Positions 1 through 42,143 of a DNA stretch of 64,000 bases are shown one piece after another. Made by a program: the position numbers and the translations under genes. Numbering within the stretch: position 1 is the stretch's first letter; every line of letters starts with the position of its first letter. The DNA comes from Rhizophagus irregularis. Lineage: Eukaryota. Location of the stretch: the NCBI RefSeq assembly GCF_026210795.1, contig NC_089431.1, forward strand, positions 4,712,001-4,776,000, written 5' to 3'. The notes under the pieces were generated by a model. The model was not told the origin of the DNA. It saw only the letters and a program-made list of their open reading frames with translations, and ran no database searches.

Positions 1-2470
1 ATCTATTATATTTATACATATAATTTAACTAAATTCTTTATTTAAAAAATTATTTTATATTTCTTTTAGTTGGTAAGTTATAAGTTATTTATTTAATTCT
101 ATTATATTTATATGATGTTTACGTATAATTTAAACTAACTAAATTCTTTATCTAAAAAATTATTTATTTAATAATATAGCGAGTATGTTATTTTTATATT
201 TATATAATATTTACGTAAATTTAAACTAACAAATTCTTAACTTAAAAAAATATTCAAATATTTTAGATCGTAAGTAATTTATTATATTATATAATATTTA
301 CATATAATTTAAACTAACTAAATTCTTTATTTAAATTATTTTGTAATTTCTTTTAGTTAGTAAGTTATAAGTTATTTATTTAATTCTATTATATTTATAT
401 AATGTATACATATATTTTAAACTAACCAAATTCTTTATTTAAAAAATTATTTATTTAATAATATAGCTAGTATGTCATTTATTTAATTCTATTATATTTA
501 TATAATATTTACATATAATTTAAACTAACTAAATTCTTTATTTAAAAATTATTCAAATATTTTAGATCGTAAGTGATTTATTATCATATTTATAATATTT
601 ACATAACATATAATTTAAACTAACTAAATTCTATATCAAATATTTTAGATTGTAGGTAATTTATTATATTTATATAATATTACATATAATTTAAACTAAC
701 TAAATTCTATATATAAAATTAAATATTTTAGATTGTAAGTAATTTATTATATTTATATAATAGCTTCACATAATTTAAACTACTAATTAAATTCTTTATT
801 TAAAAAATTATTCAAATATATTAGCTTGTAAGTAATTTATTAGTATATTTATATAATATTTACATATAATTTAAACTGATTAAATTTTTTATTTAAAATA
901 TTATTCAAATGTTTTATATTGTAAGTAATTTATTATTATATTTATATAATATTTAAATATAATTTAGACTAACTAAATTCTTTATTTAAAAAATTATTTT
1001 GTAATTTCTTTAGTTGGTAAGATATAAGTTATTTATTTAATTCTATTATATCTATATAATATTTACATATAATTTAAACTAACTAAATTCTTTATTTAAA
1101 AAATTATTTATTTAATAATATAGGCAGTATGTTATTTATTTAATTCTATTATATTTGTATTATGTTTACATATAATTTAAACTAACTAAATTCTTTATTT
1201 AAAAAATTATTTATTTAATAATATAGGCAGTATGTCGTTTTTAATTCTATTATATTTATATAATATTTACATATAATATAAACTAACTAAATTCTTTTAT
1301 TTAAAAAATTATTTATTTAATAATATAGGGAGTATGTTATTTATTTAATTCTATTAATATATTTATATAATTATTATAATATTTACATATAATTTAAAAA
1401 TTCATTACAATATTTTAGATTGTAAGTAATTTATTATATTTATATAATATTTAAATATAATTTAAACTAACTAAATTCTTTATTTAAAAAATTATTCAAA
1501 TATTTTAGACTGTAAGTGATTTATTATATTTATATAATGTTTACATATAATTTAAACTAACTAATTCTTTATTTAAAAATTATTCAAATATTTTAGATTG
1601 TAAGTAATTTATTACATTTATATAAAATTTACATATAATTTAAACTAATTAAATTCCTTATTTAAAAAATTATTCAAATATTTTAGATTGTAAGTAATTT
1701 ATTATTTATATAATATTTACATATAATTTAAACTAACTAAATTCCTTATTTAAAAAATTATTTTGTAATTAGTTGGTAAGATATAAGTTATTTATTTAAT
1801 TCTATTATATTTATATAATGTTTACATATAATTTAAACTAACTAAATTCTTTATTTAAAAATTATTCAAATATTTTAGATTGTAAGTAATTTATTATATT
1901 TATATAATATTTACATATAATTTAAACTAACTAAATTCTTTATTTAAAAAATTATTTTGTAATTTCCTTTAGTTGGTAAGTCATGAGTTATTTATTTAAA
2001 TCTATTATATTTATATAATAACTACATATAATTTAAACTAACTGAATTCTATTTAAAAATTATTCAATATTTTAGATCGTAAGTAAATTATTATATTTAT
2101 AAATATTTACATACAATTTAAACTAACTAAATTCTTATTTAAAATATTTTAAATCGTAAGTTATTTATTATATTTATATAGTAATGTCTACATATAATTT
2201 AAACTAACTAAGTCCTTTATTTAAAAAATCATTCAAATATTTTAGATTGTATGTAATTTATTATATTTATCCGGGGATAATCATCACCGTTGGCCAGAAT
2301 TATCAATTTTTACCGGCACTATATTTTTTAATGCTGGTCGATCGTCATAATTTCAGTCACCAGTGATCATCACCCCGGTGATAGTTAGAAAATTTAATAT
2401 CTATATTTTTTATATTTAATTTATTATACAATCTTTTTAAAAATTTTGGTAATTTATTTAGTTGGTAAGT
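1..2470 (+). repeat. Tandem array of ~25 intron-like units (~83-110 bp) separated by 3-nt putative micro-exons; runs off the left edge
   Basis: Each unit reads GTAAGT/GTATGT ... AAACTAACTAA (branch-point-like CTAAC) ... TAG, then exactly 3 nt (e.g. TTG 70-72, CGA 180-182, ATC 267-269, GCA 1124-1126, TTG 2462-2464), then the next GT. Confidence 0.8.
2271..2390. mobile_element. Short dispersed inverted-repeat element (MITE-like); second copy at ~51722-51845
   Basis: CCGGGGATAATCATCAC...GTGATCATCACCCCGG inverted ends followed by TGATAGTTAGAAAA; near-identical sequence at 51722-51845. No TSD resolved. Confidence 0.6.
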
Positions 2471-2486
2471 CATAAGTTATTATATA

Positions 2487-2619
2487 CCGTATACTTCCGA
2501 TATTAAGCACCCCCGAAAATAAGCACCTGGCCAGAATTATGAAATTTTTGGCCTACGTTATGCTGTTGCTTGCCAGCATTACGGTCAAAAAAAGGGTGCT
2601 CAATTTCGGAAGTATACGG
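2487..2619. mobile_element. Tc1/mariner-pogo-type MITE
   Basis: TIR CCGTATACTTCCGA / TCGGAAGTATACGG flanked by TA on both sides (2485-2486, 2620-2621). Confidence 0.8.
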
Positions 2620-2782
2620 TACTATTTATTTAAAATTTAAATTAATTAAATATTTATTATATTAAAATCTTATAATTTTATTTAGAGTAAGTATAATTAT
2701 TATTGTTTAATATTTAAATTTTTAATCGTAAATTTTATTTTAAACCTTAATTTTTAATATAAATTTATTTTTATATTTAAAG

Positions 2783-5515
2783 ATTTGGTACTAGTGGAAG
2801 TGAAATTATGGATCAATTTATTTTTAAAAATAAATTAAAATGGATTCCTTATGATAAATTTGAAAATATTGAATATTTTGATAAAGGAGAATTTGGTACT
2901 ATATATAAAGCTAAATATGATATTATTGAAGTAATTCTTAAATATTTTGATTATCTTAATAATTCAGATGAAGGTTTAAATGAATTACTAAATGAAGTAT
3001 GATTAAATATAATTCTTTTTTAATATTTATAATTTGTTATACTAATTAACTAAATATTATTTCTTTATAGCGGAAAATTATTAATTCAAATGAAATTATT
3101 GAAATATATGGATTTACAAAAGATCCAGATACTTTGGATTATGTATTAGTAATGGAGTATACAAATAAAGGCAGTTTAAAAAGATGTTTAACAGAAATAA
3201 CAAAAAATTGGAAACAAAAATTATTTTGTTTATATCAAATTATTAAGGGTCTTAATTATATTCATGAAAAAGATCTTATTCATTATAACTTTCATAATGG
3301 TAATATTTTATGTAACGAATATACAGGAAATATATATGGAATTCTTATTAGTGATTATTTAGGATTATATCAACTTGCAAAATCTATTTTAAAAGAAAAT
3401 AATATTTATGGAGTTTTACCATTTATAGCACCTGAAATTTTAAGAGGTCAACCTTATACTCAAGCTAGTGATATATATAGTTTTTCTATAATTATGTGGG
3501 AATTTACATCTGAAATTCCACCATTTAATGATAAAGCACATGATCTTCAACTTGCTTTAAGTATTTGTAAAGGCAAACGTCCTGAAATTATTGAAAATAC
3601 TCCACTATGCTATATAGATTTAATGACAAAATGCTGGGATGAAGATCCATTAAAAAGGCCATCTTCTAAAGAAGTTTTAAAAATTATTAAAAATTGGATT
3701 TTTCGTCCTGAGAATAAGAAAATTAAAGATATTATTAATGAAGAATTAATAAACAATATTATGGAATTTATAAATGCACCAATTGAGCATAATAACCTTA
3801 TTGTAAAATCTCATCCAAAAGCATACTCAACAAGTCATTTATTTGATTTTACTAGTAAAGAACTAAATGAAATTCTAGAAGGCACTCAAGGATTTTTTGA
3901 ATCAAAACAAAATTATCAAAGTTCTTATAATATTCAAATGGAATTAGTTAATTTACAACAAAACTCAACTTTACAAAATGAAGAATTTGCAAAAAAAGAA
4001 AACACTTTACAAATCCAAATTAAAAACTTGCAAAGTGAAAAGCAAGCTTTAGATGGTAAGCTGACTGAACAGTTAAAACAAAACAGTCAGTTAAATCAAG
4101 AAAAAAATAATTTGCAAGATAAATTAGTCCAAACAGAAGCCATTATTCAAGAATTAAAATCTCAGCAAGATCAATTTAAAAATCAATTAATTCAAATAGA
4201 GGAAGAAAATTTTAAGTTAGAAAATGAATTAGTTGATTTACAACAAAAGAATTTTAAATTTGAACAAAATAATCAAAATTTGAGGCTTAATTTAGCTATA
4301 CAAATTAAAAAATTTGCAGAAAAAGAAAATGTTTTACAAACCCAAATCATTGACCTGCAAAATGAAATGCAATTCTTAATTGATAATTTAACTAAACAAT
4401 TGGAACAAAATAAACAGACTAACCAGCAAATTCAAGTTCAAGTTAGTCAGTTAAAGCAAGAAAAATTTGATTTACAAGAAAAATTAATTCAAACAGAAGT
4501 TAATATTCAAGAATTAAAATCTCAGCAAGAAAGCTTAACTGAACAAAAAGAGCAATTAGAAAATAAACTAAGTCAGTCCCAAGTTAATTGTGAACAGATA
4601 GAACAAGAAAAGATCAGGTTGCACAATATGGTAAAAGGTCTTTCACAAGAACAAAAGCTTACAACTAAATTGAAAACCAAGTTGGAAAAAGAAATTGCTC
4701 AATTGGAACAAAAATTGATTATTGAAGAACAAATCAAAATGCAATTAACTCAAGCTTTACAGATAAAAGATGATAAAATAAATGAATTAGAAAAGAAACT
4801 TGTTACTCTTGATCAAGAACGTATTAAGCAGCTAAAAGACAAAGTAAAAGAATTGAATAAAATTGAGAAGGAATTATTAAATAAATTAACTAGTGGAGAA
4901 AATACTAAGGAAATTCATAAAGAAAAAGAAGCTAAACAAAAAGAGATGAATGAACTCCAGCAAGAATTATCAAGAACCTCAGATTCTTATGATGCCAATA
5001 GAAAAAAACTGATTATCAGTCAAGTCAACAATTTTCTGAAAGTTAAGGGTGATTTCCTAACCTTACGAGAAGAAGCTATTAAAAAACTACAAAATTGTTG
5101 TAATCATCTAGAAAGCTCCATTAATAAGGAAAGAAATACTATTAGTTCTATCAGAGATTTAAAAACCTCTAAATTGACTGACAAATATACTAAAGAATTT
5201 CAAAGTATTCTTGTAAAATATAATGATGGATTATTAGAGCTGAACAAAGATTATTATTTTTTAAAGAATGTTGTTCAGGAAAATAAAGAGCTGGAAGTTA
5301 GCCTCATGATTGAGAATATTCTTAAGTTGAATTTTTTCAATCTTGATAAATACAAAATTTTTAAATTTGCTACTAATTCTCAGGAAGGAACCAGAATTCA
5401 ATTAAATTCTAATATGATGGAAGAAGATATAAATTCATTGAGAAAGAATTTGAATGAATTGAAATTAGAATTGAACCAAGAAAAAAATGAATTAAAAAAT
5501 CTAGCAACAGTTTAG
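2783..5515 (+). CDS. TKL-like protein (pseudo)kinase with long C-terminal coiled coil; exons 2783-2996 and 3071-5515, further 5' exons probably in the micro-exon array
   Basis: GTSG..MDQFI and LKWIPY pre-kinase motifs, KGEFG, LVMEY, APE, SDIYSF, CWDEDPLKRP. GT-AG intron 2997-3070 joins the two ORFs in frame. The HRD motif reads HYN. Confidence 0.85.
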
Positions 5516-10930: not shown

Positions 10931-13729
10931 ATGGCAGAAACAAATTATCATATTAATTGGTTGGAAAAATCAATTATTAAACAAAAGATAGATTATTACG
11001 ATTATTCAGATTTTAAAAACAAACGACTAATAGGAGGTGGTTCATTTGGAAACGTCGTACGTGCTACATGGAAAAACACCGATTCACTTTTTGCTTTGAA
11101 GTTCTTTAAAAATGATAAAGTAACACTTAAAGAAATTATTAAGGAGGTATTAAAATAAATATATTTCAAAAATTTTTACATCTTTTACATTTTTTTAAAT
11201 TATATGAAAAGATTATTCTTAATTTTCGTTTAAATACCGCAGTTAAAATTACATCGGAAGGTTAATTCTCATGAAAATATTATATATTTTTATGGAATCA
11301 CAAAAGTAAAAGATGGTAAGTATTAGAAATAAACCATCGTTATAATAATAACAACAACTTTTTACGGTATTAAAAAAAACATATATATTTTTAGATGAAA
11401 CGATTGAAGTATCTCAAGAGATAAAATACTCGTTAGTTTTGGAATATGCTGATAGTGGTACATTGGAAACTTATTTAAACGAGCATTTTAATGAACTTAA
11501 ATGGAATGACAAACTGAAACTGGCATTTCAATTAGCAAGTGCTGTATCACATTTACATAAACGTGATATTATTCATCGCGATCTGGTAATGATCAATTAT
11601 TTTTTTTTTCTTTTATAATTTATTATGTCAAATTTTGATTATTTCTTTCTTATTTTAATTTAAAAACAGCACGCGAACAATGTTCTTATACATCAGAAAA
11701 ATATTAAGTTGGCAGATTTTGGTTTATCAAAGAAGATTGCCGAAGCATCAAGTAATATATCCAAAATACATGGTGTGATTCCTTATGTTGACCCGAAAGT
11801 GTTTAACAAGAATCAAAATGAAAAATATAAATTAGATAAAAAATCTGATATATATAGTATTGGAGTTTTAATGTGGCAAATTTCGAGTGGATATCAACCG
11901 TTTTCTTCTAAAGGTGTTAATTATGATTTAAGTTTAATTTTATCTATTTCCAATGGTGAAAGAGAAGAAATTATTGTTGGAACTCCAATTGAATATAGTA
12001 ATTTATATTCAGGTAATAAGCGAAATATCTAGTATTTTAATACTTAAAAGAAGATTAATAACAATTTTATTGTTTATTTAATTTAGAATGTTGGAAATAT
12101 GAACCAAATGAACGTCCAGATATACAAGAGGTTGTCTCTAATCTTGGATCAATTTTTCTCGAAAGAAGTGACATAATTCTTTATATTAATAGCGAAAGAA
12201 AAGAAGATAATTTACTAATCGATCAATATAGTAACTCAAATTCATATAAAGAATCTATGGGAATAAATGATAATTTATCAGTACCAAGTAATATTAAGTT
12301 TGAAGGAAGTTTAAGCTCATATATGGGCCAAAATGTTACTTTAAGTATAATGGAACGTGATAATAATACAACATCGTCAACAGATACATTTGAATCATCT
12401 ATTGATAATATTGTTATTGATGAATTAATCAAAATCATGATCAAAAATCATGATAAAGGTATTACATTTGACCAGATTAAAGAAATTATAAATGAAAAAA
12501 TATTAAAATCAGGTCGAACTAAAGACAAACTCGCAAATTGGTTAATAAAAAATCAAGTTGGATCACAATATATACATTTTCTTGGATTGTTATATTATTA
12601 TAATATTTATAATATTGGTATAGAAGAAAATAGTGTTAAAGCATTTGAATTATTTTCAAAGGCATCAAAAAGTGATTATTCGTTAGCTCAAGTTTATCTT
12701 GCCAAATGTTACAATGATGGATGTGGAACTGAAAAAGATAATATCTTGGCATTTCATTGGTATAAAAAATCTGTAAAAAATGGAAGTAATATTGGAGAAT
12801 TTTATTTAGGATACTGCTATGAATTTGGAATTGGAACCCTAATAGATAAAAAGAAATCAGTTGAACTATATCGAAAAGCAGCTAAAAATGGAAATATTAC
12901 AGCAACAATTTATCTTGCGGATTGTTATAGATTAGGAAAAGGTGTTGACAAGAATGAAACTAAAGCATTTGAGTATTACAGAATACTGGCTAATAAAGAT
13001 GTAATTGATGCACAATATCAACTTGGAAATTGCTTTTATCATGGAATTGGAACAGAAATAGATAAAAAACAAGCTTTTAATTGGTATAAAAAAGCAACAA
13101 TTAATGGAAATTTTTTTGCAAAAGATATACTTAAAATATATTTTAGTAAAGAAGAAAGAGTTGAGATAGACGAACTTAAAGATACAAAATTTCCTAAAAT
13201 CTTTTCTTCCAAAAGTTTGACTCAATATGGATTAAACTATCTTGGAATTATGTTATCAAAAACAAATTATGAGAAAGCATTTTATTATTTTCATAAAACA
13301 GCTGAAGATGGATGTAAATTTGCAAAATTTAACTTAGGTGGATGCTATCAACTAGGAAAAGGCGTAAAAAAAGATGAAAGAAAAGCATATGAATTATACA
13401 ATCAATCAGCCAGCCAAGGATTTATAGATGCAAAGTTAAATCTGGGTTATTGTTATGAGTATGGAATTGGGACTGATATTAACGAGACGAAAGCATTTGA
13501 ATTATATAAAATAGCTGCAGAAAATGGAAACGCCATTGCTTGTTTCAAATTAGGTTTATGCTACACGTTAGGATATGGAGTTAACATAGATAAAAAGAAA
13601 GCCCTTCAGCTATTTAAAAAGGGAATTGAAAAAAGAGGAGTTGATAGAAAAGTAAAATTAACAATAATAAGGACTATGGAATCGATATATCAACATCTAG
13701 TGGCAGAATCTCTCTTTTCAAGAGAATAA
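10931..13729 (+). CDS. TKL-like protein kinase with C-terminal Sel1-like repeats; exons 10931-11146, 11243-11315, 11395-11585, 11670-12012, 12087-13729
   Basis: GGGSFG, FALK, HRDLH, DFG, SDIYSIG and [10 protein letters not shown] across four GT-AG introns; repeated A..LG.CY..G.G...D...AF..Y.KAA Sel1 units. Confidence 0.92.
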
Positions 13730-16025: not shown

Positions 16026-17786
16026 ATGGAGTCATATCGAGGGCAAGAGGAGTTCGAGGAACATCTATTAAAAGAAGTCAAGTCTTTTGTGAGCAAAAAT
16101 TTTACAAAAGCCAATTCTAGGCATAAAGACGAGTTAGAGGATATTTTCGACAAAATATTTTTCAGGACGCTAAAAACACATAGGTTACTAGTGGAAATAA
16201 GTAATATTACTGGCATAAAAGGTGAAACCATAGAAATAATAGCCAAAAGTATACTGAGGTTCGCATATAGAGAACATAATAACGACGTTGAAAGAATTGG
16301 AAACCAGAATATTCTGGCTGCGGCAGGCGCAGCAAAAACCTTCGACACAAGATTAAAGCTCCGAACGGTTCCAGTTTGAACCGGGAACCGATCCGGAACC
16401 GGCAAAAAATTCGGTTCGGTTCTCGGTTCGGTTTTGGACTTGGAACCGTCCGGTTCGGTTCAGTTCTATCCGAAATTAAGAAAAAATGCAAAAAAACGAA
16501 TATACGACCATCCAGTGATCGTACAAGGACGAGCCATAGCTCGTTGGAATCCTCTCATCGAGACGCGTCGAATGGTGGTAAAATCAAGTCTCTAGCATCG
16601 ATAGATTACGAGATAGCACATGGTGAGTGTTTCTTAAAAAATTTGCATTAGAAAACGATCCATTGATTCTAGAGACATGAATTTACCACCATTCGACGCA
16701 TCTCAACGAGACGAATCTAATGAGCTATAATTCGTCTTTTTGCAATCACTGGATGGTCGTGTATTCGTTTTTTCGCATTTTTTTTTAAATTTTCGATCAA
16801 AAATTAAAATTCCGATACAAGCGATTAAACGCCATCTATTGATCACACAAAGACGAATTTTAGCTCTTTGGATTCGTCTCACTGAGACGAGTCGAATGGT
16901 GGTAAAATGATGTCACTAGCATCGATAGATCGTTTTCTAATGCGAATTGTTTAAGAAACACTCACCATGGGCTATCTCACGATCTATCGATGCTAGAGAC
17001 ATCATTTTACCACCATTCGACTCGTCTCAGTGAGACGAATCCAAAGAGCTAAAATTTGTCTTTGTGTGATCAATAGATGGCGTTTAATCGCTTGTATCGG
17101 AATTTTAATTTTTGATGTTCGAAAATTTAAAAAAAAATGCGAAAAAACGAATACACGACCATCCAGTGATTGCAAAAAGACGAATTATAGCTCATTAGAT
17201 TCGTCTCGTTGAGATGCGTCGAATGGTGGTAAATTCATGTCTCTAGCATCAATGGATCGTTTTCTAATACAAATTTTTTAAGAAACACTCACCATGTTTT
17301 ATCTCGTGATGTATCGATGCTAGAGACTTGATTTTACCACCATTCGACGCGTCTCGATGAGAGGATTCCAACGAGCTATGGCTCGTCCTTGTACGATCAC
17401 TGGATGGTCGTGTATTCATTTTTTCGCATTTTTCTTAATTTCGGATAGAACCGAATCAACCGATTTGTTGGCGTTTCGGTTCCATTTCGGTTTTCGGTTC
17501 TACCCGAACCGCAAAAAAACCGAACCGAACCGACCCGTTCAGAGCTTTACACAAGATACACAACTAAATAAAGAAATAGAATGCGAGTTAAAAACACCAA
17601 TCAAAAACGTCTCAGAACAAAGAAAAATGCTGAAAAATAAAAAACGTGAAAAAAAATCAGTTAAGGAAATTGTGCTCCCATCAAATGATGATCAGATATC
17701 GATCCAAAAAAATACTGGGGCTCAGAGTACAACATCACGTGATATTTTATTTTATGATATACCATCAAGATATAGCGAGGAAGAGG
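16026..17786 (+). pseudogene. 5' part of the retroposon ORF (LINE ORF1-like, RRM-like), interrupted by the hAT foldback and by element A
   Basis: ORF from 16026 with a frameshift near 16255; resumes after the hAT TSD (TQDTQLNK...DILFYDIPSRYSEEE) and joins in frame to VVNAIKQLGKV at 44947. Confidence 0.7.
16354..17549. mobile_element. Non-autonomous hAT foldback element (1196 bp, almost wholly palindromic)
   Basis: TIR TAAAGCTC(C/T)GAACGG (YARNG start), 8-bp TSD CACAAGAT (16346-16353, 17550-17557), GAACC subterminal repeats, long inverted arms around ~16960. Confidence 0.9.
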
Positions 17787-27367: not shown

Positions 27368-27854
27368 GTCGTCGGGCTGGTAGTGTAGTCACTAACGTTC
27401 CTCCACCTCGGCCAGGGCCTTGCAGTACCTACATCCCCCCTCCGTGGGGCAGGTTTACCTGCCACAGTACCATGGTCTGCCACGGTATTTTTCCACTTTT
27501 TTTTTTTTCTACATTTTTTCTTATATATAACTTACTATGACAACTATGGCAACTATGGCAGAGTACTTAAAAATGGAATAAAAACGCGAATAAAGCCGAA
27601 ATCAAACAGAATCTCCTGCCATAGTACCTGCCATAGTACGAAAAATCTTATAATAATACTATGGCAGCCTTAGTCAGCCCCTCAGACCCCAAAACCCGAT
27701 TCACGCTATGATTACCCTTTATATACTCACCTAGACCCTCCAAGTATGATTCCCTATGTCCTGAACTATGGCACCCGAACTATGGCAGCCGAACTATGAC
27801 CACTTACCCCGTCAGAAAAAATATATTCGGCAATTGAAGATTAGGTAACTATAA
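27368..27854 (+). repeat. Left TIR of element B (487 bp)
   Basis: Reverse complement of 42144-42658; contains ACTATGGCA repeats in both orientations and three 14-bp GAACTATG units. Confidence 0.93.
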
Positions 27855-27882
27855 ATTAGTACTCGATTTGATAGAACAAAAA

Positions 27883-30360
27883 ATGGCCGCTCAAGTTCCA
27901 GCAATCTTTAACCCCAACAACCGTTTCTTCTACGATGACCTTCTTAAAAAATGTGTAGGTACACACACGAAAGAAAGCGTCAATTCAGCAATCTTGGCTT
28001 CTGTGGCTTTCATCACCACAAAATCCGGCATGTGGATTAGAAAAAAGAAGGCTTACAATGGAAGCATATACTTCGAGTTCGCCGCAGATCTTAAGGGGAT
28101 TTCTACTAAGCACAAGGTAATTATTCGGTCAGATACCGGAGAAGACAGTGACGTGACCACATCCACCAAATTAAAGGATCTTCTTCTCCAAGCATCAATC
28201 GCAAAGATCTGTTATACAGATGTAAACTTCATGCCTTATCCCCCAAATGCGCCAAAGTATAATCCTGAATTCTTCAATCTCTTCCTAGGTTTCAGGGCCC
28301 AACCCGCTAAGCGCATCAAACCAAACCTAGTTAATCCAATCATCCGACACGTTCATGAGGTATGGTGTGCAGAGGACAAGCAATTAACTATATACATCCT
28401 CAACTGGCTCGCATTTCTAATTCAAAATCCAGACAAAAAACCCGGTACAGCAATTATCATGCGCAGTCCCCCCAGATGTGGTAAGAATATCTTAACCGAT
28501 TTTATCGGAGAACGTATTCTCGGCCGTGAAAATTTCCTCTCCACTACTCGTCTTGAAGATGTAATGGGAAGGTTCAATGTGGCTGTTCGTGCCAAAAAAC
28601 TTATCATCCTCAATGAATGCGATATGTCAGGCAAGGAATGGCACGGGGCAAACAACCGACTCAAGAGTTTAATCACCGAGCCTTACATCTCTATTGAGGA
28701 AAAGGGGATAGATGTGAAGGTTATTGATGACTTTGCTGGCTACATGATCCTCAGTAATCATGCTATGCCAATCCGCATAGAAATGGGAGATGAAAGATTT
28801 GTAGCTCTCAACGTCTCAGCCAAATATAAGGGCAATAGAGAATACTTCGGTTCTCTCGTAAAAGTATTAGAAAATCCGGATACAGCCAGTTCCTTCATGT
28901 CCTATCTACTTAGCCGAGACTTAACTGGCTTCAATCCCCGATCTATTCCTGATACTCAAATGAAACGGGAGTTAATTGAAGCAAGTATCCCGAATCCCCA
29001 GCGTTTTATACAATATTACCTTGAAATGATGTGGCCCGACAATTGCGACACACTTGAAATCCCGTGTACAAATTTCTATAGCACTTACCAGAATTGGTGC
29101 AGTGAGAAGGGTGAAAACAAAACACTAAGTGACAATAAATTCGGTATGGAGATTAAACAATTCGCCCCTAAAATGCGTGTAAGCCGCTCAGGTACCCGAA
29201 TAAACTATTACATACTAGATAAAGCAAAAATCGTGGAGAATTTTAGTAAAGTAATCCAAGATGTACAAGACGTACAGGAAGCACCAGTAGAGGGAGTAGA
29301 GTTAGTTGCCGAGAAACCCGCTGAGGAAAAACCCGCTGAGAAAAAACCCGAACCCGCTGAGGAAAAACCCACTGAGAAAAAACCCGAACCCGCTGAGGAA
29401 AAACCCGCTGAGAAAAAACCCGAACCCGCTGAGGAAAAACCTGCACCTGTAATTCGCAAGACTCCTCCACCACTTCCACCCAAGCCTGACCACTTAAAAG
29501 AACGTCCACAAGAGTTAAGAAAAGAACAACCAGATCCCGATGAAGATACTAATGAGTCAAACACCGATAAATCTATAGATAACTTTTCAGATTGTTATTT
29601 ATCTGACGAGGAACCCGACCAAGAAGAACCTATCCCCGAGCCAGATAACTACGACGTTTTAGATGACTTGCTATCTGACTCAGATTTTACAACTGTGAAC
29701 CCAGCTGCTGAACAACAACCCGAGTATCCCGCAGAATCTTCTGCATCTGTCACTAAGCCTGACCCAGAACCGGCTTCTGAAGAGCAATTTATCCCAGAAC
29801 CCGACACAGAACCAGAAGTTGACCGGGATCCTGAACCAAAGGAAGGCACTCGAGCGCACTGGGCTTGGCAAGAAAGACACCGATGGGATCGCAAACCATG
29901 GGTTAAAAATTTAAAGGACCAGGTCTTCAATGATCTCTACAATACAGGTAAGGAATTATGGGCCAAGTACCAAGATGCGTCAGACGAATATGACTGGGAA
30001 ATACTCGCGTTTGAAATAGAGGAATGTCCCACAACGCGTATTGAGGACGAGTACCAGTACTACCTTATGGAGGTAGTAGACCGCTTCAAGGACTGGATTG
30101 AATATAATGGATACTTACCTAAAATACCTAGCCGTAAAGAACTCGCAGATTTAATAAGAATATACAAGGAGAATCGTAATGCCGAGATTATTCCCACCCC
30201 CTCTGGTTATGAAACTATGAGGGCAGATAAGGGTAAAGCGCGAGAGATCCCCGAGGAACGTCCAAAAACTGATATGGAACGTGAATGGGAGGCCGCCAAT
30301 GGAATCATCGATGACTGGGACGAAGAGGATACTGAGGGCGCTATCAACGACATATTGTAA
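27883..30360 (+). CDS. D5-like/SF3-type helicase NTPase with winged helix and long acidic, Pro-rich tail (element B)
   Basis: FNLFLGF, WLAFLIQNP, SPPRCGKN (Walker A variant), LIILNE (Walker B), LKSLIT, ILSNH and ERF; PAEEKPAEKKPE repeats at ~29310-29445. Confidence 0.85.
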   Translation: MAAQVPAIFNPNNRFFYDDLLKKCVGTHTKESVNSAILASVAFITTKSGMWIRKKKAYNGSIYFEFAADLKGISTKHKVIIRSDTGEDSDVTTSTKLKDLLLQASIAKICYTDVNFMPYPPNAPKYNPEFFNLFLGFRAQPAKRIKPNLVNPIIRHVHEVWCAEDKQLTIYILNWLAFLIQNPDKKPGTAIIMRSPPRCGKNILTDFIGERILGRENFLSTTRLEDVMGRFNVAVRAKKLIILNECDMSGKEWHGANNRLKSLITEPYISIEEKGIDVKVIDDFAGYMILSNHAMPIRIEMGDERFVALNVSAKYKGNREYFGSLVKVLENPDTASSFMSYLLSRDLTGFNPRSIPDTQMKRELIEASIPNPQRFIQYYLEMMWPDNCDTLEIPCTNFYSTYQNWCSEKGENKTLSDNKFGMEIKQFAPKMRVSRSGTRINYYILDKAKIVENFSKVIQDVQDVQEAPVEGVELVAEKPAEEKPAEKKPEPAEEKPTEKKPEPAEEKPAEKKPEPAEEKPAPVIRKTPPPLPPKPDHLKERPQELRKEQPDPDEDTNESNTDKSIDNFSDCYLSDEEPDQEEPIPEPDNYDVLDDLLSDSDFTTVNPAAEQQPEYPAESSASVTKPDPEPASEEQFIPEPDTEPEVDRDPEPKEGTRAHWAWQERHRWDRKPWVKNLKDQVFNDLYNTGKELWAKYQDASDEYDWEILAFEIEECPTTRIEDEYQYYLMEVVDRFKDWIEYNGYLPKIPSRKELADLIRIYKENRNAEIIPTPSGYETMRADKGKAREIPEERPKTDMEREWEAANGIIDDWDEEDTEGAINDIL

Positions 30361-30444
30361 GCGCTATTTGAGATTATTTCTTTTTTTTTCGTATATATAT
30401 AGAAAGATATTATTTATAGTTGAAGACAAATCATATACATAAAA

Positions 30445-32297
30445 ATGCAATACTCAAGAATTGCCCGCACTTTACCAACACGACCTGACATCAAGGAACT
30501 TCAGTATTCCGGTGCTCGCTTTTCCAGAGGAGCTATCGCCAGACTCGGTCAGACTCTCCAGACGCGATTTCCAGATAGAAAGTTCCAGATCCTACTTCCC
30601 TATGAAAACTGGAAACCCGGTGGATGGACATCAGGAAACCAACCAGCCAGCCTCTTTTCACTATTAGACCATTATGATGAAGCACAACTACCGGATGACG
30701 CAGACCCTGATTATTTTGAACGATTCATAATTTATGCAAGAGATAGTCCACCGGCCGCAGGAGGATGCAATGGGGAGCTAAATGATTGCCTGTATGAATG
30801 CCTAAAAAATATTTACGGCACATTCTCTAAAATGCTAAAGTCAATCGAAAAGCCCGAGTATATCAAAAAGGCATTAGGTCTCAATCGCGATGCTCCCATC
30901 CCAGTTTCATGCATGGACAAGGTTGAACAACTCGCAGGAAGTCTCGCAATTAATATTGTGGGGGACATTACCCGAATCTCTAAGAGTAAGTCCGATAGAC
31001 GTGCGACTCTCATCCTATCAGAAGGCCATTACTCCCTCACGTTAAATCCTGGAAGACTCCACCCCAGTAAAATAGATAAAAAGCGTAATTTACCCATTGT
31101 ATACCATGAAGATGGGACCAATAATGTAGTCACAATATACAACGGCAAAACAGTTAAGTCTTGCACAATTGCGCAGTTTCAAAAAACTAAGAATTCCAAA
31201 AGTTCTTTCATCCCCGTCGAGAAAAACCGTAAGACTGGAGTATATGAAACTCTTGAAGAAGCATATCAGAGAATCCACGAGGAGCGGAATTCCTTTCTAC
31301 AGGAGACAAAGAAGTTCGGTTTAGGAATCGACTTATCATACCATAACTGGTCTTACAAAAGAACGGCTCTCTGGTTATTCGAACGATTAAGTGTAGGAAT
31401 TCCAGCCAATGATCCTCTTGACCCGATAGAAGCGGAGTGGTTAAGTGATGCAATGATGGGAGGATTAATCTGGGCAGATAACGAGTGGAAGGGCTATGGA
31501 AGACAGTATGACGCAACAAGTTTATACCCGAGTATCCAACAATCAAACGCGAACTTTCCAATCAGACGGGGTAAATTCCAGACACTTAATGACTTTGTCG
31601 ACCACAGGGGTTATGCCTTGTATGGATTATTCCGTGCCAAAATAAGTGGGAATAATATTCTCTTCCGACAGAATAAAAGGGGAATCTATACATTCATCGA
31701 CTTACAACGAGCAAAAAAACTTGGTCTCAATATACAGTTAATACAGGATGGGAAGCCAAATGCATTGATATATGATAGAGAAGCGAGAATCCCTGGAACT
31801 GTAATATTCGGTAAGTATGTACACTTCCTCTTCAAAATTAAAAACCAGGGTGGCATAGCTGGCCGCGTGGCAAAGCGAGTCCTCAACACATTATGGGAGC
31901 ATTATGCCAGAGGAAGCGTAATTACAAGACACTCACCACAGATCAAACAGATCCATTCAAGTTTCCAGAAGGCCACACACTTGACTCCATCGTACCAGTA
32001 GGATCTGACCAGTGGCGATTCCAGTTTACAAACCCGGGTAATCCCTTCAAAGGTGAGTATCCCAGGATCGCCCCATTCTTATTAGCACGTGGTCGCAAAA
32101 TCACATCTGAGGCAATTCAACCATACAAGGATAAAGTACGACGTATCCATACAGACGGATTTATTTTAGAAGAACAGCCAGATAGCCCCGCGGTTTTCAC
32201 TTGTTCAGAGAATGCAGATACGACTCTAAAGACTTTCAAGTTTGAAACCGCGGGATACTGCCATGTGAAAAATGCGAACAAGGTTATCTGGACATGA
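30445..32297 (+). pseudogene. Compact family B DNA polymerase (protein-primed-like), single frameshift near 31895 (element B)
   Basis: MGGL, YDATSLYPS (motif A), KRVLNTLW/GAL (motif B, split by frameshift) and IHTDGF (motif C); no clear exonuclease motifs. Confidence 0.85.
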
Positions 32298-32360
32298 TTG
32301 CTAGGGACCGGTATGTATATTTTTTACTGACATATCGTGATGGCATAATTGAATAAACCT

Positions 32361-32885
32361 ATGGGATATGTAATCTTACGAGATACCCAAATGCAAAACA
32401 CCGACGGATTAGGTAGACAAGACGACGAAAGTTTCCACGCGTGGGCTAAGCGCATTCAGAATGCTGTGCAATATTATGAGACTTGTAGTAGAATAGGTTT
32501 TCATAGGCGGCTACCTTATCCAAGGTCTCGTCAAGCTGTATATGCTTATATTGTGCACATTAGGAGAATAGTATCACGACTACCAAATAGGTGGTACTGT
32601 ACCTACTGTAAATCTTTTATTGATCGCAGATGGGGAGCTGACGCTTTCATGGATCAAGCGGTGCGACTACATTTATATAGTTGCCCAAAGCATTTTAATT
32701 TTGACTATTATACTCATCATGCTGAAATGATCCAGAATGCCTTTAGGAGATATATAGAAAGAAGGAACAATAAAGCGGCTAGGATAATCCAGAAAGTCGC
32801 TATCCCCTGGTTATATAGACCAGGCTCTCCATTGATGCAAAAGGCCGAGCGACGCTTCTACTGTCTTGCAGTATCCCAAGTGTAA
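32361..32885 (+). CDS. Hypothetical protein with Zn-finger-like CxxC..H..C and IQ-like motifs (element B)
   Basis: CTYC...HLYSC; MIQNAFRRY and ARIIQKVAIPWLYRPG. Start could be 32391. Confidence 0.6.
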   Translation: MGYVILRDTQMQNTDGLGRQDDESFHAWAKRIQNAVQYYETCSRIGFHRRLPYPRSRQAVYAYIVHIRRIVSRLPNRWYCTYCKSFIDRRWGADAFMDQAVRLHLYSCPKHFNFDYYTHHAEMIQNAFRRYIERRNNKAARIIQKVAIPWLYRPGSPLMQKAERRFYCLAVSQV

Positions 32886-32967
32886 ACCCCGAGGTTCATA
32901 TTTATTTTTTCTCATTCGAATGAACAGGTAACTGAAGATTTATATTTTTTACAAAGTACAAAGAATC

Positions 32968-33438
32968 ATGTCAACATATACCGAATTCGCAAGCATTGTT
33001 AACAGCACTGACAGCACTAGTGAGGAGGTTATTTACGAGGCATCGCGCATTCAGCCTAATGTTGTCTCTGACGAAACTGTCCCCAAGATTATCCGCGCAT
33101 TAAAAGATACTATAGTAATCGCATTAGTATCTGGGTTTAGCAAAACCAGTTACCTCGTCCAGGACCACGTGAAGTATATCAAGCGAATCCAAACGGCAAA
33201 TTCTCCTGTATCATATGTGAAGTTCGTGGCCAGAAAACTCTTCCCAGATAATGCGGCATATACTGCTAAAATAGCAAAAATCCGCGAATCATACAAGAAT
33301 AAACAAGCTCTCCTAGATAAGCTTGAGGCCCTCTTCGAATTGTATTATAATGCGACTAAGGACTCATCAACCGGTCTCCCAAAGCGAGCTATTACTAAAA
33401 ACGAGGCTGAGAAAACCTTAACAGAACTTCTTGCATAA
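32968..33438 (+). CDS. Hypothetical protein (element B)
   Basis: 156-aa intronless ORF, co-oriented with neighbours, upstream AACTGAAGA motif and downstream T-run. Confidence 0.7.
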   Translation: MSTYTEFASIVNSTDSTSEEVIYEASRIQPNVVSDETVPKIIRALKDTIVIALVSGFSKTSYLVQDHVKYIKRIQTANSPVSYVKFVARKLFPDNAAYTAKIAKIRESYKNKQALLDKLEALFELYYNATKDSSTGLPKRAITKNEAEKTLTELLA

Positions 33439-33547
33439 GCGGCTCCTGTGGTCCTACGATTCTGTACGAATTTAGTCTATATTTTTTATCCATATGTAAT
33501 AGGCATACAGTAATTGAAGATAGCTATAGTATAAGTAACATAACATC

Positions 33548-33952
33548 ATGTTGGACCGATTACCAGTAGAAATAGTCGAACGCATTGTCGCAAAGATCCC
33601 AGATACTGACCTTATTGCAGCGAGTAAGGTAGATAGAGTGTGGTGGCAGGAAGTTCGTCGAGAGGCATATAAGAAGTGGAAAAATTATGCCACTACGATC
33701 GGGGATGTGTACTGTGAAATCCGAGCTCTCGGAAAGCATTATATAAAGAGGGAAATTGACTGGATAACGTTTGAAGATGTAAACGACCTCTATAAAAGAT
33801 GGATAAACCGCCTCACCGAGGATCAGCTTTATATTATGGAGAAAATGCTTAGGAATGGGATGGTCGTGGACCCCCAAGAGAGGGAAACCATAGAGCATGC
33901 ATTAAGTGAACAAAGATGGGGAGGCGATCCTTGGAGACTGGGAGTGGTATGA
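33548..33952 (+). CDS. F-box protein (element B)
   Basis: MLDRLPVEIVERIVAKIP...ASKVDRVW F-box pattern. Confidence 0.8.
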   Translation: MLDRLPVEIVERIVAKIPDTDLIAASKVDRVWWQEVRREAYKKWKNYATTIGDVYCEIRALGKHYIKREIDWITFEDVNDLYKRWINRLTEDQLYIMEKMLRNGMVVDPQERETIEHALSEQRWGGDPWRLGVV

Positions 33953-34377
33953 ATGGACTCAACAGGAGTAAGCATTTTGTACTTGACTTTCGTAGGAATT
34001 ACCCTGCAGAGTCATATTTTTTAGATCCGGCCGGCATTACCGCGTAATCCCGAATTACCGAAAAAGGAAATTTATGTTACACAAGATTCCAAACGCATTT
34101 TTACCAAAATCGATTTTTTGTGGAACTGGTATCGCCCAAAAAGGAAATGATCTACGTACCACATGAAGTCACGTGACACTCTACACATTTGTTCAGGGTA
34201 TCACGTGACATGAACTCCGTTCACATTTTCTGTAATATAATCCATAGTTTTTCCATGAATGCTTTTTAGGCCAATAATCCAATAACTTATTCATCAGGTA
34301 TCCTCGTGCTTTGCGACAAGGACTGATGACCATGTAACCTCATCATCAGGCATCCTCGCATTTTTTGACAAGGACTG

Positions 34378-35286
34378 ATGACGATGTCACTTGGTTATTG
34401 TAAATTGAAGATAACAATTAGGTATGTAGACACGTACAGAAAAAAGACATGTACATACCCTTATATAACTAATCCTATAACCGGACGTCCAATCCGTGTT
34501 GGTGGAGATACCTTTAATCGAATAGTTATGGAATCCCATGATTATATCGATGGAAGGCTTGTCCGTAGACAAACCGTACCGCCTCCACCCCAGGAACAAC
34601 CTGTATATTTAAATACAGATACAGGACGCTATATTCAACACGGTACTAGAACGTATCATAGACTGGTTGAGAGTGACTACGAGGTAGTTGAGGACTACTA
34701 CCTTGTTCATTCTGAAGAGGAGGAGCTTATAGAGGAAATCATCAATGAAACACGCTATAATGAGGAAAATCTTGATGGCCAGCGGTTAACTTTCAATAAT
34801 ATACAACAAATCAGAGCCGCTATTCAAGCTGACCAAGATGAATATGATGATTTTATCTTACAGCAGAATACGACTAACGGGACACCTTCCTCCGGTCCTT
34901 CCGGTCGTCCACGAACTTTGGAGGACCATGCCCCGAGACTTGCAGAGCTTAATATTGAGTTGTGTAGGGAATGTCTCATGCCTGTAAGCTAAGGTTGCTT
35001 GCCGAAACCTAGGGGTTTAGGCAAGATGGCGTTTCGCCGAAAAGCGAAATTCTGGCGAAACTATATTAAAGTTATATTAAAAAACTGGCGAAACTTTAGA
35101 GAAAGGCAAAACTGCCGAAACTTATTATAAATGCCGAAACTGCCGAAACTCTGCCGAAACTATAATAAATCTATAGTAAAATTTTGACGAAACTAATCGT
35201 AGGATTTTGAAGAGGTTTAGACAAGCAACCTTACTGTAAGCCCAAGTGACTTAACGGACAAGTTGTGCAAGGACTGCGCTTCCTAA
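34378..35286 (+). pseudogene. Protein with two NPxTGRxI-type repeats and a C-terminal C4 zinc finger, interrupted by a hAT MITE (element B)
   Basis: NPITGRPIRVGG and NTDTGRYIQHG; removing the MITE gives CRECLMPVSPSDLTDKLCKDCAS*. Start uncertain. Confidence 0.75.
34990..35233. mobile_element. hAT MITE (244 bp)
   Basis: TIR TAAGGTTGCTTG, 8-bp TSD CTGTAAGC (34982-34989, 35234-35241), GCCGAAAC subterminal repeats. Confidence 0.92.
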
Positions 35287-35448
35287 TGGTCAGTCCTCCG
35301 GTCCTCTGGTCTTCCGGTCTTTCCAACGGTTGATCCCATTAATGCCAGTTATTTTTTTTTTATACAAATGACAGGTATTTAAAGATAACAATATATAAAA
35401 AAGATTGTGAAGGATACTAAGTGAGTGAATAATCAAAGAAAGATAGCC

Positions 35449-36000
35449 ATGTCAACATCAATCGTAATAAACCAGTGTCAGAACTGTGGAGTATTCTCTG
35501 CAAAAGCGGCATATAGAGGATTATCCAGCGTGTTGTATAGACAGATTATAAAGAAGATTGGTGACGAGAGTGAACCTTTACAAGCCTTGGGACTTGCCAG
35601 GGATAAGTTGGTCCAGATTATCCGTCGGGCAAGTAATGCGGATTTTACACAATTATTCACACAAAGACTAGATATGAAAATTATGGACGGAGATTCATAC
35701 GAGGATACTAGGAAGTGGCTTCTTGAACAGCTTATAGCCATTGGATGTGACAGTGGGGAAATTGCCTTATATCAGTTCTTACGGAATACATACCCGGATG
35801 GTATTGACGAACCCTTTACTACATTCTATGAGAACTATGTAAATCATGTAAGAAATCCGATGACTAAGAACTTTGCTTCTCGAGCCTTAGGAGCTATTGG
35901 ATTAAAAGCTAGGATGCTACGGATTGACTTCGAAGGACGTAAAAAAAGCGCCATGATTCTTAGGGCTTCTGCGGAAGAACTTCGCGAGATGGGTTGCTAA
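35449..36000 (+). CDS. Hypothetical protein, possible C-terminal winged helix (element B)
   Basis: EPFTTFYENY...MTKNFASRAL resembles the D5-type C-terminal wHTH of the neighbouring helicase (weak). Confidence 0.6.
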   Translation: MSTSIVINQCQNCGVFSAKAAYRGLSSVLYRQIIKKIGDESEPLQALGLARDKLVQIIRRASNADFTQLFTQRLDMKIMDGDSYEDTRKWLLEQLIAIGCDSGEIALYQFLRNTYPDGIDEPFTTFYENYVNHVRNPMTKNFASRALGAIGLKARMLRIDFEGRKKSAMILRASAEELREMGC

Positions 36001-36013
36001 AGCAACCAGATTC

Positions 36014-37204
36014 TTACAAAATACTATTGATCCCTACTCGTAATGCTCGACGGTCCATATGACCCTTAGAAAAGATCTGTAAAAGGACCCCGATGCCTTC
36101 TATTATTTTTTTATTATCCAAAGGGTGACTAGACTTCAGGACTTCATATCGGAAGAATAACTCCTTTACGGTCTCAGATTTTGGAATTTCAGTCTTCGCG
36201 GTCCTATCCCGTACTTTCGCTAAGAAGTTTTGGAAGTCTGATCCCAGGGTCTTACCAGATAATCCGTAGGCTTCCCGAAAGACGTACTTAATCCAGGTAT
36301 CTGCGTTCTTAGCTATAATACCAGATACGAGGAGGTGTTTTCTCTCTTTAGGCGATGGATATTCCCGAGCAAACTCAATTAGCTGGAAGGACTTTTTTGC
36401 TTCAGCTACAGCTTTTTGGCCATAAGGACTAAACTTTGATCGAACTGGGTTCAAACTCGGATCGAACGGGGATTGAACTGAGTTCGAACTAGAATCGAAC
36501 TGAGATTGATCAGTGATCGAACTGAGACTAGTATCCCATCTAACCCGAATGGATAACGGATCGCTCTTGGATCTTCTAAGATCAAACACTACAAATTCAC
36601 GTTGCAGAGTAAGATCATCAATTACTGGTGCTAATGACTCTGATTCTTCTGTATATAGGCGGATGATTCTCTTAGTATCGGTCAAACTTCCGTGACCTCC
36701 ATGTAGGGAAATATAATTCACATTTTCACGAATAGCCTTGGGAATGGTAAAGAATCTTTGGGCCACATAAATACATGAAATATTTTTGGTTCGTCCGTGT
36801 GTAAAAAATCCAGTGATGAGATCCTGGGTTTTTTTAGGCGCATCCATCAAATCCTTGAAGATTACCACAGTAGCCTGGGTGGAGTTGAAGTCCTTAACAT
36901 TTGGAATCTCACTATGGGATACTGCGGTAAACGGAATTTCTTCTTCTTTGAAAAAATCACGTACGACTGCCCACTTCGGTTCATCGAGGTATCTGCCAAC
37001 TAGAATTACCGCATCACATAATATGTACCTTTCGCCATCCTCCTTTGCCTTCTTGTCTCCCATTAACAAATTAATAATCATAGTTGTCTTACCCGAGTCA
37101 GAACTTCCTGCTACGGCAAGACGGAAAGGCCATGATGGGGCAAACTCATTACCCTGTCTCGAGTCGGTCGTGTACTCGTCCAAATTGTATACATAAAGAT
37201 CCAT
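36014..37204 (-). CDS. A32/FtsK-HerA-like DNA packaging ATPase (element B)
   Basis: GSSDSGKTT (Walker A), VVIFKDL (Walker B variant), THGRTKNIS, AQRFF and IPKAIRENVNY. Confidence 0.88.
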   Translation of the reverse strand: MDLYVYNLDEYTTDSRQGNEFAPSWPFRLAVAGSSDSGKTTMIINLLMGDKKAKEDGERYILCDAVILVGRYLDEPKWAVVRDFFKEEEIPFTAVSHSEIPNVKDFNSTQATVVIFKDLMDAPKKTQDLITGFFTHGRTKNISCIYVAQRFFTIPKAIRENVNYISLHGGHGSLTDTKRIIRLYTEESESLAPVIDDLTLQREFVVFDLRRSKSDPLSIRVRWDTSLSSITDQSQFDSSSNSVQSPFDPSLNPVRSKFSPYGQKAVAEAKKSFQLIEFAREYPSPKERKHLLVSGIIAKNADTWIKYVFREAYGLSGKTLGSDFQNFLAKVRDRTAKTEIPKSETVKELFFRYEVLKSSHPLDNKKIIEGIGVLLQIFSKGHMDRRALRVGINSIL

Positions 37205-37235
37205 TTGAATTTTATTCTATCTTAGTTTAAATACG

Positions 37236-40137: not shown

Positions 40138-40151
40138 GGAATATTTATTTT

Positions 40152-41279: not shown

Positions 41280-41287
41280 ATCTTAAG

Positions 41288-41608
41288 ATGACACGATTTT
41301 ACTGCCTAAAGTGTAAGAAGGAAACCGAGACTGCTAGTGAAATACAAGATATGACCACAAATGGCCGCTATCGTTTACATGGTGACTGTGTAGTTTGTGG
41401 GATGCATAAGAATACTTTTACTGGGATAGACTGGGTTATCAAAAAGAAAACCAAGGAGAAGAAAAAAGAAACTGCGGCTAAAAGACATCAGATGGCGTAC
41501 AATCGGCAATGCAAAAAACTCGGGCAGAAAATCTTAGATTCTGATGACACGTGTAAGCAGTGTATTGATAAATGCCTTAAGGAGGCAAAAAAGAGGAAGA
41601 CGGATTAG
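41288..41608 (+). CDS. Small zinc-ribbon protein (DUF5679-like) (element B)
   Basis: MTRFYCLKCKK...TNGRYRLHGDCVVCG..KNTF; ATG at 41288. Confidence 0.75.
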   Translation: MTRFYCLKCKKETETASEIQDMTTNGRYRLHGDCVVCGMHKNTFTGIDWVIKKKTKEKKKETAAKRHQMAYNRQCKKLGQKILDSDDTCKQCIDKCLKEAKKRKTD

Positions 41609-41617
41609 TACCGCCTT

Positions 41618-42133: not shown

Positions 42134-42143
42134 TGTATGTTAC

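What the first reader, a model, noticed from the sequence alone, without database searches (positions are those of the whole stretch)
1..2790. The 'satellite' is an intron array: ~25 three-nucleotide micro-exons that would spell a transmembrane-like helix one codon per exon
Seen: every repeat unit has a donor (mostly GTAAGT/GTATGT), a CTAAC branch-like motif and a TAG acceptor, and units are always separated by exactly 3 nt. 23 units have intact AG; those at 918 and 2153 do not. Spliced in phase 0 the triplets read TTG CGA ATC TTA CTA ATC ATT ATT CTT TTG GCA GCA GGA ATT ACT ATT ATT TTG ATT TTG ATC ATT TTG = LRILLIIILLAAGITIILILIIL. A 5-nt exon AGTAA (2686-2690, donor GTATAA) would join this in frame to the kinase exon at 2783 (..SKFGTSG..). 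An alternative is a 1-nt exon A (2686, donor GTAAGT), which implies phase 1; that reading is also stop-free but polar. Inference: a receptor-like pseudokinase whose membrane segment can be varied by frame-preserving exon skipping and repeat expansion. The hydrophobicity could partly be a by-product of ATT/TTG being the amplified triplets.
Basis: partly seen in the sequence, partly recalled or inferred. Interest (0 to 1): 0.8.

Follow-up and report, generated by a model that had tools for sequence, protein, structure and literature searches.

The report
Codon-splitting micro-exon array in fungal kinase
In front of a kinase gene of the root-symbiotic fungus Rhizophagus irregularis lies a repeat of about 25 short introns separated by three-base spacers, and RNA from sister genes carries strings of such triplets joined to the kinase exon, so the repeat is likely spliced into a fast-evolving, water-soluble stretch of the protein rather than a membrane helix, a layout I found described only for truffle immune-receptor genes.

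Summary
The array is real: 23 intact AG-NNN-GT units, two that lost AG, then a 1-nt exon (A, 2686), in front of a Rhizophagus irregularis pseudokinase. PolyA reads, nearly all from paralogues, join the kinase exon at 2783 through loose ends that finish in TTG+A, not AGTAA (93 and 108 reads). Upstream they match the array's triplet vocabulary in register. That fixes phase 1: each codon is split between two exons, and the peptide is polar and aromatic (GRAVY -1.0), not a membrane helix. Four soil-metagenome loci carry similar arrays, all needing phase 1; triplets diverge twice as fast as their flanks. Not shown: splicing of this copy (1 of 1,099 reads at 99%+), exon skipping, the upstream exon, a function. 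Closest precedent: codon-sized micro-exons of Tuber melanosporum NACHT-ankyrin genes (seen only through citing papers). This scan noted a similar array in another genome, without RNA (e1-7450022/23). Verdict: new variant of a known kind; micro-exon idea supported, transmembrane receptor reading rejected.

The parts
1..2464 (+). Array of 25 repeat units (introns of 74-107 nt, one of 213 nt) with 23 intact 3-nt exons; three unit types A/B/C; open to the left of the window
918..920 (+). Unit that has lost its acceptor AG (donor intact); likely skipped
2153..2155 (+). Second unit without acceptor AG; likely skipped
2462..2464 (+). Last 3-nt exon (TTG); the same triplet ends every RNA loose-end consensus
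2485..2621 (.). Small insertion with 16-nt terminal inverted repeats inside the intron 2465-2685 (MITE-like, inferred)
2686..2686 (+). 1-nt exon A (acceptor TAG, donor GTAAGT); middle base of a Glu codon built from three exons
   Evidence: the same donor is used by paralogue gene models ending ..LE/LD-FG
2783..2996 (+). Kinase exon 1 (frame starts at 2784: FGTSG.., N-lobe); in-frame ATG at 2808-2810 is where public models start
2997..3070 (+). Ordinary 74-nt intron
   Evidence: P0135 and P0001 read across it
3071..5515 (+). Kinase exon 2: rest of kinase domain (Asn at the catalytic Asp position) and long coiled-coil-like tail; frame open for 885 aa from 2784

Best explanation
The repeat is likely a chain of working spliceosomal introns whose 3-nt spacers are joined in the mRNA, followed by a 1-nt exon, and would be read in phase 1 as a short, polar, fast-evolving segment in front of a predicted cytoplasmic pseudokinase. 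Shown at family level: mature RNA carries array-type triplets, then TTG, then A, then the kinase exon. Shown by frame: each codon is the last base of one exon plus the first two of the next; here 23 residues, 8 of them Tyr or Phe, no stop, GRAVY -1.0. Inferred from paralogue models: translation starts in an upstream acidic Ser/Gly-rich exon ending in phase 1, outside this window. Shown by unit types: the array grows by duplicating exon-centred blocks with breakpoints inside introns. Inferred: any gain, loss or skipping of a unit keeps the frame and also rewrites one codon, so the array acts as a generator of peptide variants. Most likely use (untested): varying a binding or regulatory surface next to the kinase N-lobe.
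For:: depth rises from about 2-4 to about 120-140 at 2783; 93 (X23) and 108 (X24) reads and 4 contigs (X4) have loose ends there, and 53 and 48 more at 2793; all five consensus strings carry CTT TTG A before the exon. Read in the register set by that A, 20 of 27 triplets of the three 2783 strings belong to the window's 10-triplet vocabulary, against 4 of 57 in the other two registers (hand count; Fisher p 6e-10; 14 of 21 without the last two triplets). The ATG at 2808 reads ATA in 175 of 269 and 194 of 306 reads, so most transcripts must start upstream. L008 (29 exons), L005 (11), L009 (5) and L002 (2) have the same arrays, and each kinase exon leaves 2 nt over, which is phase 1. Phase-1 stops: 0 against 2.64 on shuffling exon order, P=0.034. 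Codon adaptation 0.56 in phase 1 against 0.33 in phase 0, reference 0.67. In 8 of 8 homologous first-exon models the residue after ESK/VSK has a G-first codon (A, D, G, V), as expected if that exon ends in phase 1 (a ninth, unrelated match has N). Nearest-neighbour units differ at 76 of 150 triplet bases but 147 of 600 held-out flank bases. Acceptor and donor type agree across the same exon in 25 of 25 units and across the same intron in 11 of 24.
Against: The reads are paralogous: of 1,099 laid, 1 is 99%+ and 16 are 95-99% alike, so splicing of this copy is not shown. No read was matched to its own genomic array, so a continuous exon in the expressed paralogues is not formally excluded. Consensus strings are mixtures (agreement 0.58-0.72), 80 loose-end rows were not shown, and one of the five (X23, 2793 group) has a TAG in the coding frame. 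X23 and X24 come from one study. Phase 0 is also stop-free in all five arrays. The codon-usage gap is confounded by the donor's liking for G at -1, and phase 2 scores 0.53. Neighbour pairs are not independent. This copy has lost two acceptors, carries insertions and has its own ATG at 2808. L009 has a stop in its kinase exon. No skipping isoform was observed.
Confidence: 0.7

Rival explanations
1. One reading: triplets are read in phase 0 as a Leu/Ile helix, joined through a 5-nt exon AGTAA, giving a receptor-like kinase.
For: Phase 0 is stop-free with GRAVY 3.19. Public gene models of paralogues use the same reading: 20 of 70 models with the FG.SG motif end in SK, several after G/I/L-rich strings.
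Against: 0 of 5 junction consensus strings end in AGTAA. Four other loci have no frame-correcting exon and need phase 1. Their phase-0 peptides are not membrane-like (GRAVY 0.59 and 0.79 for the two long ones). Codon usage is poor in phase 0. Paralogue first exons end in phase 1 and show no ectodomain. The public models are predictions, not transcripts (inferred from their low-complexity ends).
Confidence: 0.05
2. The array is spliced, but constitutively, and the peptide is a neutral linker. The array is a by-product of tandem duplication that the frame tolerates, not a diversity device.
For: No skipping was observed. Exon-centred duplication explains growth without selection. The triplet positions differ at similar rates (21, 26 and 29 of 50), as in weakly constrained sequence.
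Against: Triplets diverge twice as fast as flanking intron bases and keep 21-32% GC against 11-14% in introns. The design recurs in divergent kinase subfamilies and keeps costly splicing.
Confidence: 0.3
3. This particular copy is silent or decaying, or is translated from the ATG at 2808 with the array in the 5' UTR, although the family uses the array as coding sequence.
For: 1 of 1,099 reads at 99%+. Two lost acceptors and insertions in the last introns. Public models P0001 and P0135 start at this Met. Catalytic Asp is replaced.
Against: The frame is open for 885 aa and through the array in phase 1. FGTSG upstream of the Met is kept. Only about a quarter of each of two runs was read, and the strain is not known to match.
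Confidence: 0.2
4. The array is an inert satellite derived from one intron, and the RNA loose ends come from paralogues with an ordinary exon.
For: No read was tied to a genomic array.
Against: AG and GT are kept in 29 of 29 (L008) and 11 of 11 (L005) units whose introns are only 78% and 71% alike (units were found by these signals, but spacing shows no gap apart from two long introns in L008). The vocabulary match is specific to one register. Triplets do not evolve like their flanks.
Confidence: 0.05

Closest known systems
Tuber melanosporum nank (NACHT-ankyrin) NLR genes with codon-sized micro-exons (Iotti et al. 2012, PMID 22289772, not held; seen only as passages in PMC4986451, PMC3689799, PMC10197012 and PMC13449251)
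   Same: Tens of 3-nt exons in an expanded gene family of a mycorrhizal fungus; proposed to diversify a protein.
   Different: Here the host gene is a protein kinase, not an NLR, in a distant fungal lineage. Exons are in phase 1 and end with a 1-nt exon (the phase in Tuber is not given in the passages I saw). Alternative splicing is reported for Tuber and untested here.
Isolated 1-3 nt exons: Coprinopsis cinerea, 89 genes with an exon of 3 nt or less (PMC12230235, passages); Fusarium CYP621A and Arabidopsis single-nucleotide exons (PMC12940212, PMC4674806, search listing only)
   Same: 1-nt and 3-nt exons between ordinary introns are spliced in fungi and plants.
   Different: Those are mostly one per gene (27 three-nt exons in 26 genes in Coprinopsis), not tandem arrays of 23-29 with fast-diverging exons.
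Schistosoma micro-exon genes (MEGs) (recalled, no call)
   Same: Runs of very short symmetric exons varied by skipping.
   Different: As recalled, MEG exons are 6-36 nt and encode secreted proteins; here 3 nt, in front of a kinase, with no secretion signal seen in paralogue models.
Exon-shuffling NB-ARC-TPR genes of brown algae (Zambounis et al. 2012; passages in PMC10197012 and PMC13449251)
   Same: Exon-plus-flank modules that are duplicated and rearranged to vary a protein.
   Different: There the exons belong to repeat-domain receptors (one repeat per exon, recalled); here each exon is one codon long.
Expanded kinase family of Rhizophagus irregularis (2,533 members, PMC10234402, passages)
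   Same: The downstream gene is a member (P0001, OCT59_021159, 100% identical over the matched part).
   Different: The passages found for 'exon', 'intron' and 'splic' in that paper's main text mention no such arrays (supplements not read). Public models start after the array or read it in phase 0.

Membership tests
Codon-sized micro-exon genes of the Tuber nank type | Tens of consecutive 3-nt exons | tested here: met
   23 in the window, 29 in L008, 11 in L005
Codon-sized micro-exon genes of the Tuber nank type | Triplets present in mature mRNA | tested here: inconclusive
   Met for paralogues as mixed consensus; not shown for this locus or unit by unit
Codon-sized micro-exon genes of the Tuber nank type | Alternative splicing of the micro-exons | not testable with these tools
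   The read tool gives one 30-letter consensus per place, not single reads
Codon-sized micro-exon genes of the Tuber nank type | NACHT plus ankyrin architecture | tested here: not met
   Only Pkinase and PK_Tyr_Ser-Thr in 3071-5512; the part upstream of the window is unseen. Works like, is not a member.
Receptor-like kinase | Transmembrane helix before the kinase | tested here: not met
   RNA-supported frame gives GRAVY -1.0
Receptor-like kinase | Signal peptide and ectodomain | tested here: inconclusive
   Upstream of the window is unavailable; paralogue models begin with a short acidic Ser/Gly-rich exon, and three with another kinase domain (P0090, P0101, P0137)
Pseudokinase | Loss of a catalytic residue | tested here: met
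   Catalytic loop reads HYNFH, Asn at the Asp position; across the 243 proteins fetched by then, 167 loop matches: D 123, N 39, S 4, G 1. Activity not assayed.
Recursive splicing (zero-nucleotide exons) and stwintrons (features recalled) | Spacer bases are absent from the final mRNA or rebuild a splice site | tested here: not met
   Units are AG-NNN-GT, not AG-GT, and triplets stand in polyA RNA
Schistosoma micro-exon genes (features recalled) | Symmetric exons of 6-36 nt in a secreted protein | tested here: not met
   Exons are 3 nt and precede a kinase domain

The most novel reading that the evidence does not exclude
Arbuscular mycorrhizal fungi have evolved, independently of truffles, a combinatorial peptide generator across a large kinase family. 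Dozens of phase-1 codon-splitting exons per gene are shuffled in the genome and skipped in the RNA, each event rewriting a codon, so one gene yields a repertoire of hypervariable recognition segments. This would be an adaptive-immunity-like source of diversity in an organism with no known sexual cycle, hidden so far because aligners and gene models miss or misread it.
Probability: 0.35. Interest if true: 0.9.

Novelty: new variant of a known kind. Interest (0 to 1): 0.74.

Why it matters
Arrays of codon-sized exons had one precedent in my searches, in truffle NLRs. A second case, in kinases of the model arbuscular mycorrhizal fungus and in related soil loci, suggests a recurring fungal way to diversify proteins. 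It bears on how these fungi generate variation. It offers a natural test of how a spliceosome removes 25 abutting introns around 3-nt and 1-nt exons. It also means that N-termini of many public Rhizophagus kinase models are probably truncated or in the wrong frame. Existing long-read cDNA could test all of this at once.

Tried and rejected
No whole genome is held, so the upstream exon and this genome's paralogous arrays could not be read. No RNA holder was on record in the run index; that is no evidence either way. Reads were laid only on 2765-3005; coverage of the array itself is unknown. Pattern scans of prokaryote genomes and viral contigs found 0 matches. Rfam: 0 matches in 1-2800. Three protein searches and one HMMER scan gave no protein that I could identify as transcript-derived with a full phase-1 linker. 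Of 15 related loci, 4 have arrays; the other 11 show none, and most are too short upstream. L012 has a CxxC-type segment directly before the same exon and no array, so the array is not universal in the wider family. Eight literature searches listed no paper on such arrays in arbuscular mycorrhizal fungi; only the top 20-30 rows were seen, subscription journals are missing, and no supplements were read. Iotti et al. 2012 is not held. Rejected: 5-nt exon AGTAA, transmembrane helix, recursive splicing, stwintron, inert satellite. No fold or complex prediction was run, as a 23-residue variable segment would not be informative.
Full report
Identity. The ORF at 3071-5515 matches OCT59_021159 of Rhizophagus irregularis at 100% over the aligned part and carries Pkinase and PK_Tyr_Ser-Thr domains. 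With the exon at 2783-2996 the frame is open for 885 aa. The catalytic loop has Asn in place of Asp, so this copy is a predicted pseudokinase; across the 243 proteins fetched by then, 123 of 167 loop matches have Asp. The species has 2,533 kinase genes (PMC10234402, passages).

Observation. It is as described: 23 intact AG-NNN-GT units between 70 and 2464, two units without AG (918, 2153), and at 2686 a choice between a 1-nt exon with donor GTAAGT and a 5-nt exon with donor GTATAA. GT and the donor +5 G are kept in 25 of 25 units. A CTRAY motif lies 36-46 nt upstream in 20 of 23 intact units. Shuffled sequence gives 0.03 matches against 23, but the units are copies, so the tests below carry more weight.

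RNA. Two polyA read sets of one study and two contig sets were laid on 2765-3005 at 82% likeness. Of 1,099 reads, 1 was 99%+ alike, 16 were 95-99%, 137 were 90-95% and 945 were under 90%, so the signal comes from paralogues. Summed depth jumps from about 2-4 to about 120-140 at 2783. There, 93 and 108 reads and 4 contigs of X4 have loose ends; 53 and 48 more reads have them at 2793, across the junction. All five consensus strings show CTT TTG A directly before the exon; none shows AGTAA. In this locus the last triplet is TTG and the 1-nt exon is A. Counting back in threes from that A, 20 of 27 triplets in the three 2783 strings are among the window's ten triplet types, against 4 of 57 in the other registers (hand count; p 6e-10, or 14 of 21 and p 2e-7 without the last two triplets). 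Caveats: the strings are majority letters of mixed reads (agreement 0.58-0.72), one has a stop in the coding frame, 80 rows were hidden, and no read was tied to its own genomic array.

Frame. TTG, A and the first base of the kinase exon make G-A-A, Glu, so array introns are in phase 1. The 23 exons then give 23 residues with no stop, 4 Tyr, 4 Phe, 3 Asn, 2 His, 2 Asp, GRAVY -1.0, ending F-E before FGTSG. Four further lines agree. First, soil-metagenome loci L008, L005, L009 and L002 (4 of 15) have arrays of 29, 11, 5 and 2 exons before a related kinase exon, and each exon leaves 2 nt over (the L005 start was corrected by one base). These four share one intron position and are not independent of each other. 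Second, phase 1 has 0 stops against 2.64 on shuffling exon order (P=0.034); phase 2 has 16 and phase 0 has 0. Third, codon adaptation is 0.56 in phase 1, 0.53 in phase 2 and 0.33 in phase 0 (confounded by donor preference). Fourth, eight paralogue models begin with an acidic Ser/Gly-rich or shorter homologous exon ending ESK or VSK, and in 8 of 8 the next residue has a G-first codon, with four different residues; a ninth regex match was unrelated and has Asn.

Coding or UTR. The in-frame ATG at 2808, where public models of this locus start, reads ATA in 175 of 269 and 194 of 306 reads. Of 70 models that include the FG.SG motif, 68 have Ile, Leu or Val there (models starting at the Met are excluded by construction). 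Most expressed family members must therefore be translated through the triplet string. For this copy a start at 2808 remains possible.

Evolution. The window's units fall into three types. Acceptor flank and donor flank agree across one exon in 25 of 25 units but across one intron in 11 of 24, so the duplicated module is exon-centred; blocks of three and of two units are repeated at 89% and 91% identity (types were assigned by my own rules). Between nearest-neighbour units chosen on half of the flank columns, the held-out flank differs at 147 of 600 bases and the triplets at 76 of 150 (window 33/240 against 16/60; L008 80/276 against 45/69; L005 34/84 against 15/21). An inert satellite would not single out these three bases. 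In the window no triplet starts with AA, AG or GA, so of 276 ordered exon pairs only the 9 that skip the last TTG would make a stop; L008 has 20 of 435 and L005 7 of 66.

Mechanism. Shown: array anatomy; triplets plus the 1-nt exon in family mRNA; phase 1. Inferred: introns of 80-110 nt with strong donors are removed by intron definition (general knowledge of fungal splicing); the string encodes a soluble segment between a short first exon and the kinase; gain, loss or skipping of a unit keeps the frame and rewrites one codon. Untested: skipping, expression of this copy, and any role in recognition or regulation. Against an active state of this copy stand two lost acceptors, insertions in the last introns and almost no matching reads in the quarter of two runs that was read.

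Comparison. [quoted passage not shown] This gene works like them in layout but is not a member: it encodes a kinase. Isolated 1-3 nt exons are known in fungi (PMC12230235 passages; PMC12940212 listing). Eight searches listed no report of such arrays in arbuscular mycorrhizal fungi. The scan noted a like array behind a kinase in another genome without RNA support (e1-7450022, e1-7450023); I did not test it.

Verdict. Real feature; micro-exon array supported, transmembrane reading rejected; new variant of a known kind; interest 0.74.

Noticed in passing
window 17787-44942: 27-kb, GC-richer element with 381-nt terminal inverted repeats (99%). Nested in it is a 15-kb element (about 27368-42658) with its own inverted repeats. 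ORFs include two integrases, a D5-like primase-helicase and an A32-like packaging ATPase; looks like nested Polinton/Maverick-like elements (label recalled).
   Followed up: partly
window 12062-13729: 555-aa ORF with 7 Sel1 repeat stretches.
   Followed up: partly
window 48894-49982: 33-bp tandem repeat (29 copies) inside a 457-aa minus-strand ORF with apolipoprotein-like coiled-coil hits below cut-off.
   Followed up: partly
window 53424-54242: Minus-strand ORF with AIG1 / MMR_HSR1 GTPase domain.
   Followed up: partly
window 16473-17436: Complex palindromic repeat with several nested inverted arms.
   Followed up: no
L008 517-813 and 2241-2684; window 2249-2685: Array introns tolerate insertions of 100-350 nt while the flanking splice sites stay intact.
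   Followed up: partly
L009 497-680: The kinase exon behind the array has an in-frame stop, a possible pseudogene that still keeps its array signals.
   Followed up: no
P0090, P0101, P0137; P0071: Some public models fuse an upstream kinase domain to this kinase exon; P0071 has a low-complexity phase-0-type string ending LSK before a coiled-coil region. Arrays may also link other domains.
   Followed up: no
P0093: First exon begins MGQCICK, resembling a myristoylation/palmitoylation signal (motif recalled); other paralogues lack the Gly.
   Followed up: no
P0001 against P0135: The current public model of this gene (771 aa) omits 106 residues of the kinase C-lobe that the open frame and an older model (877 aa) keep.
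   Followed up: no
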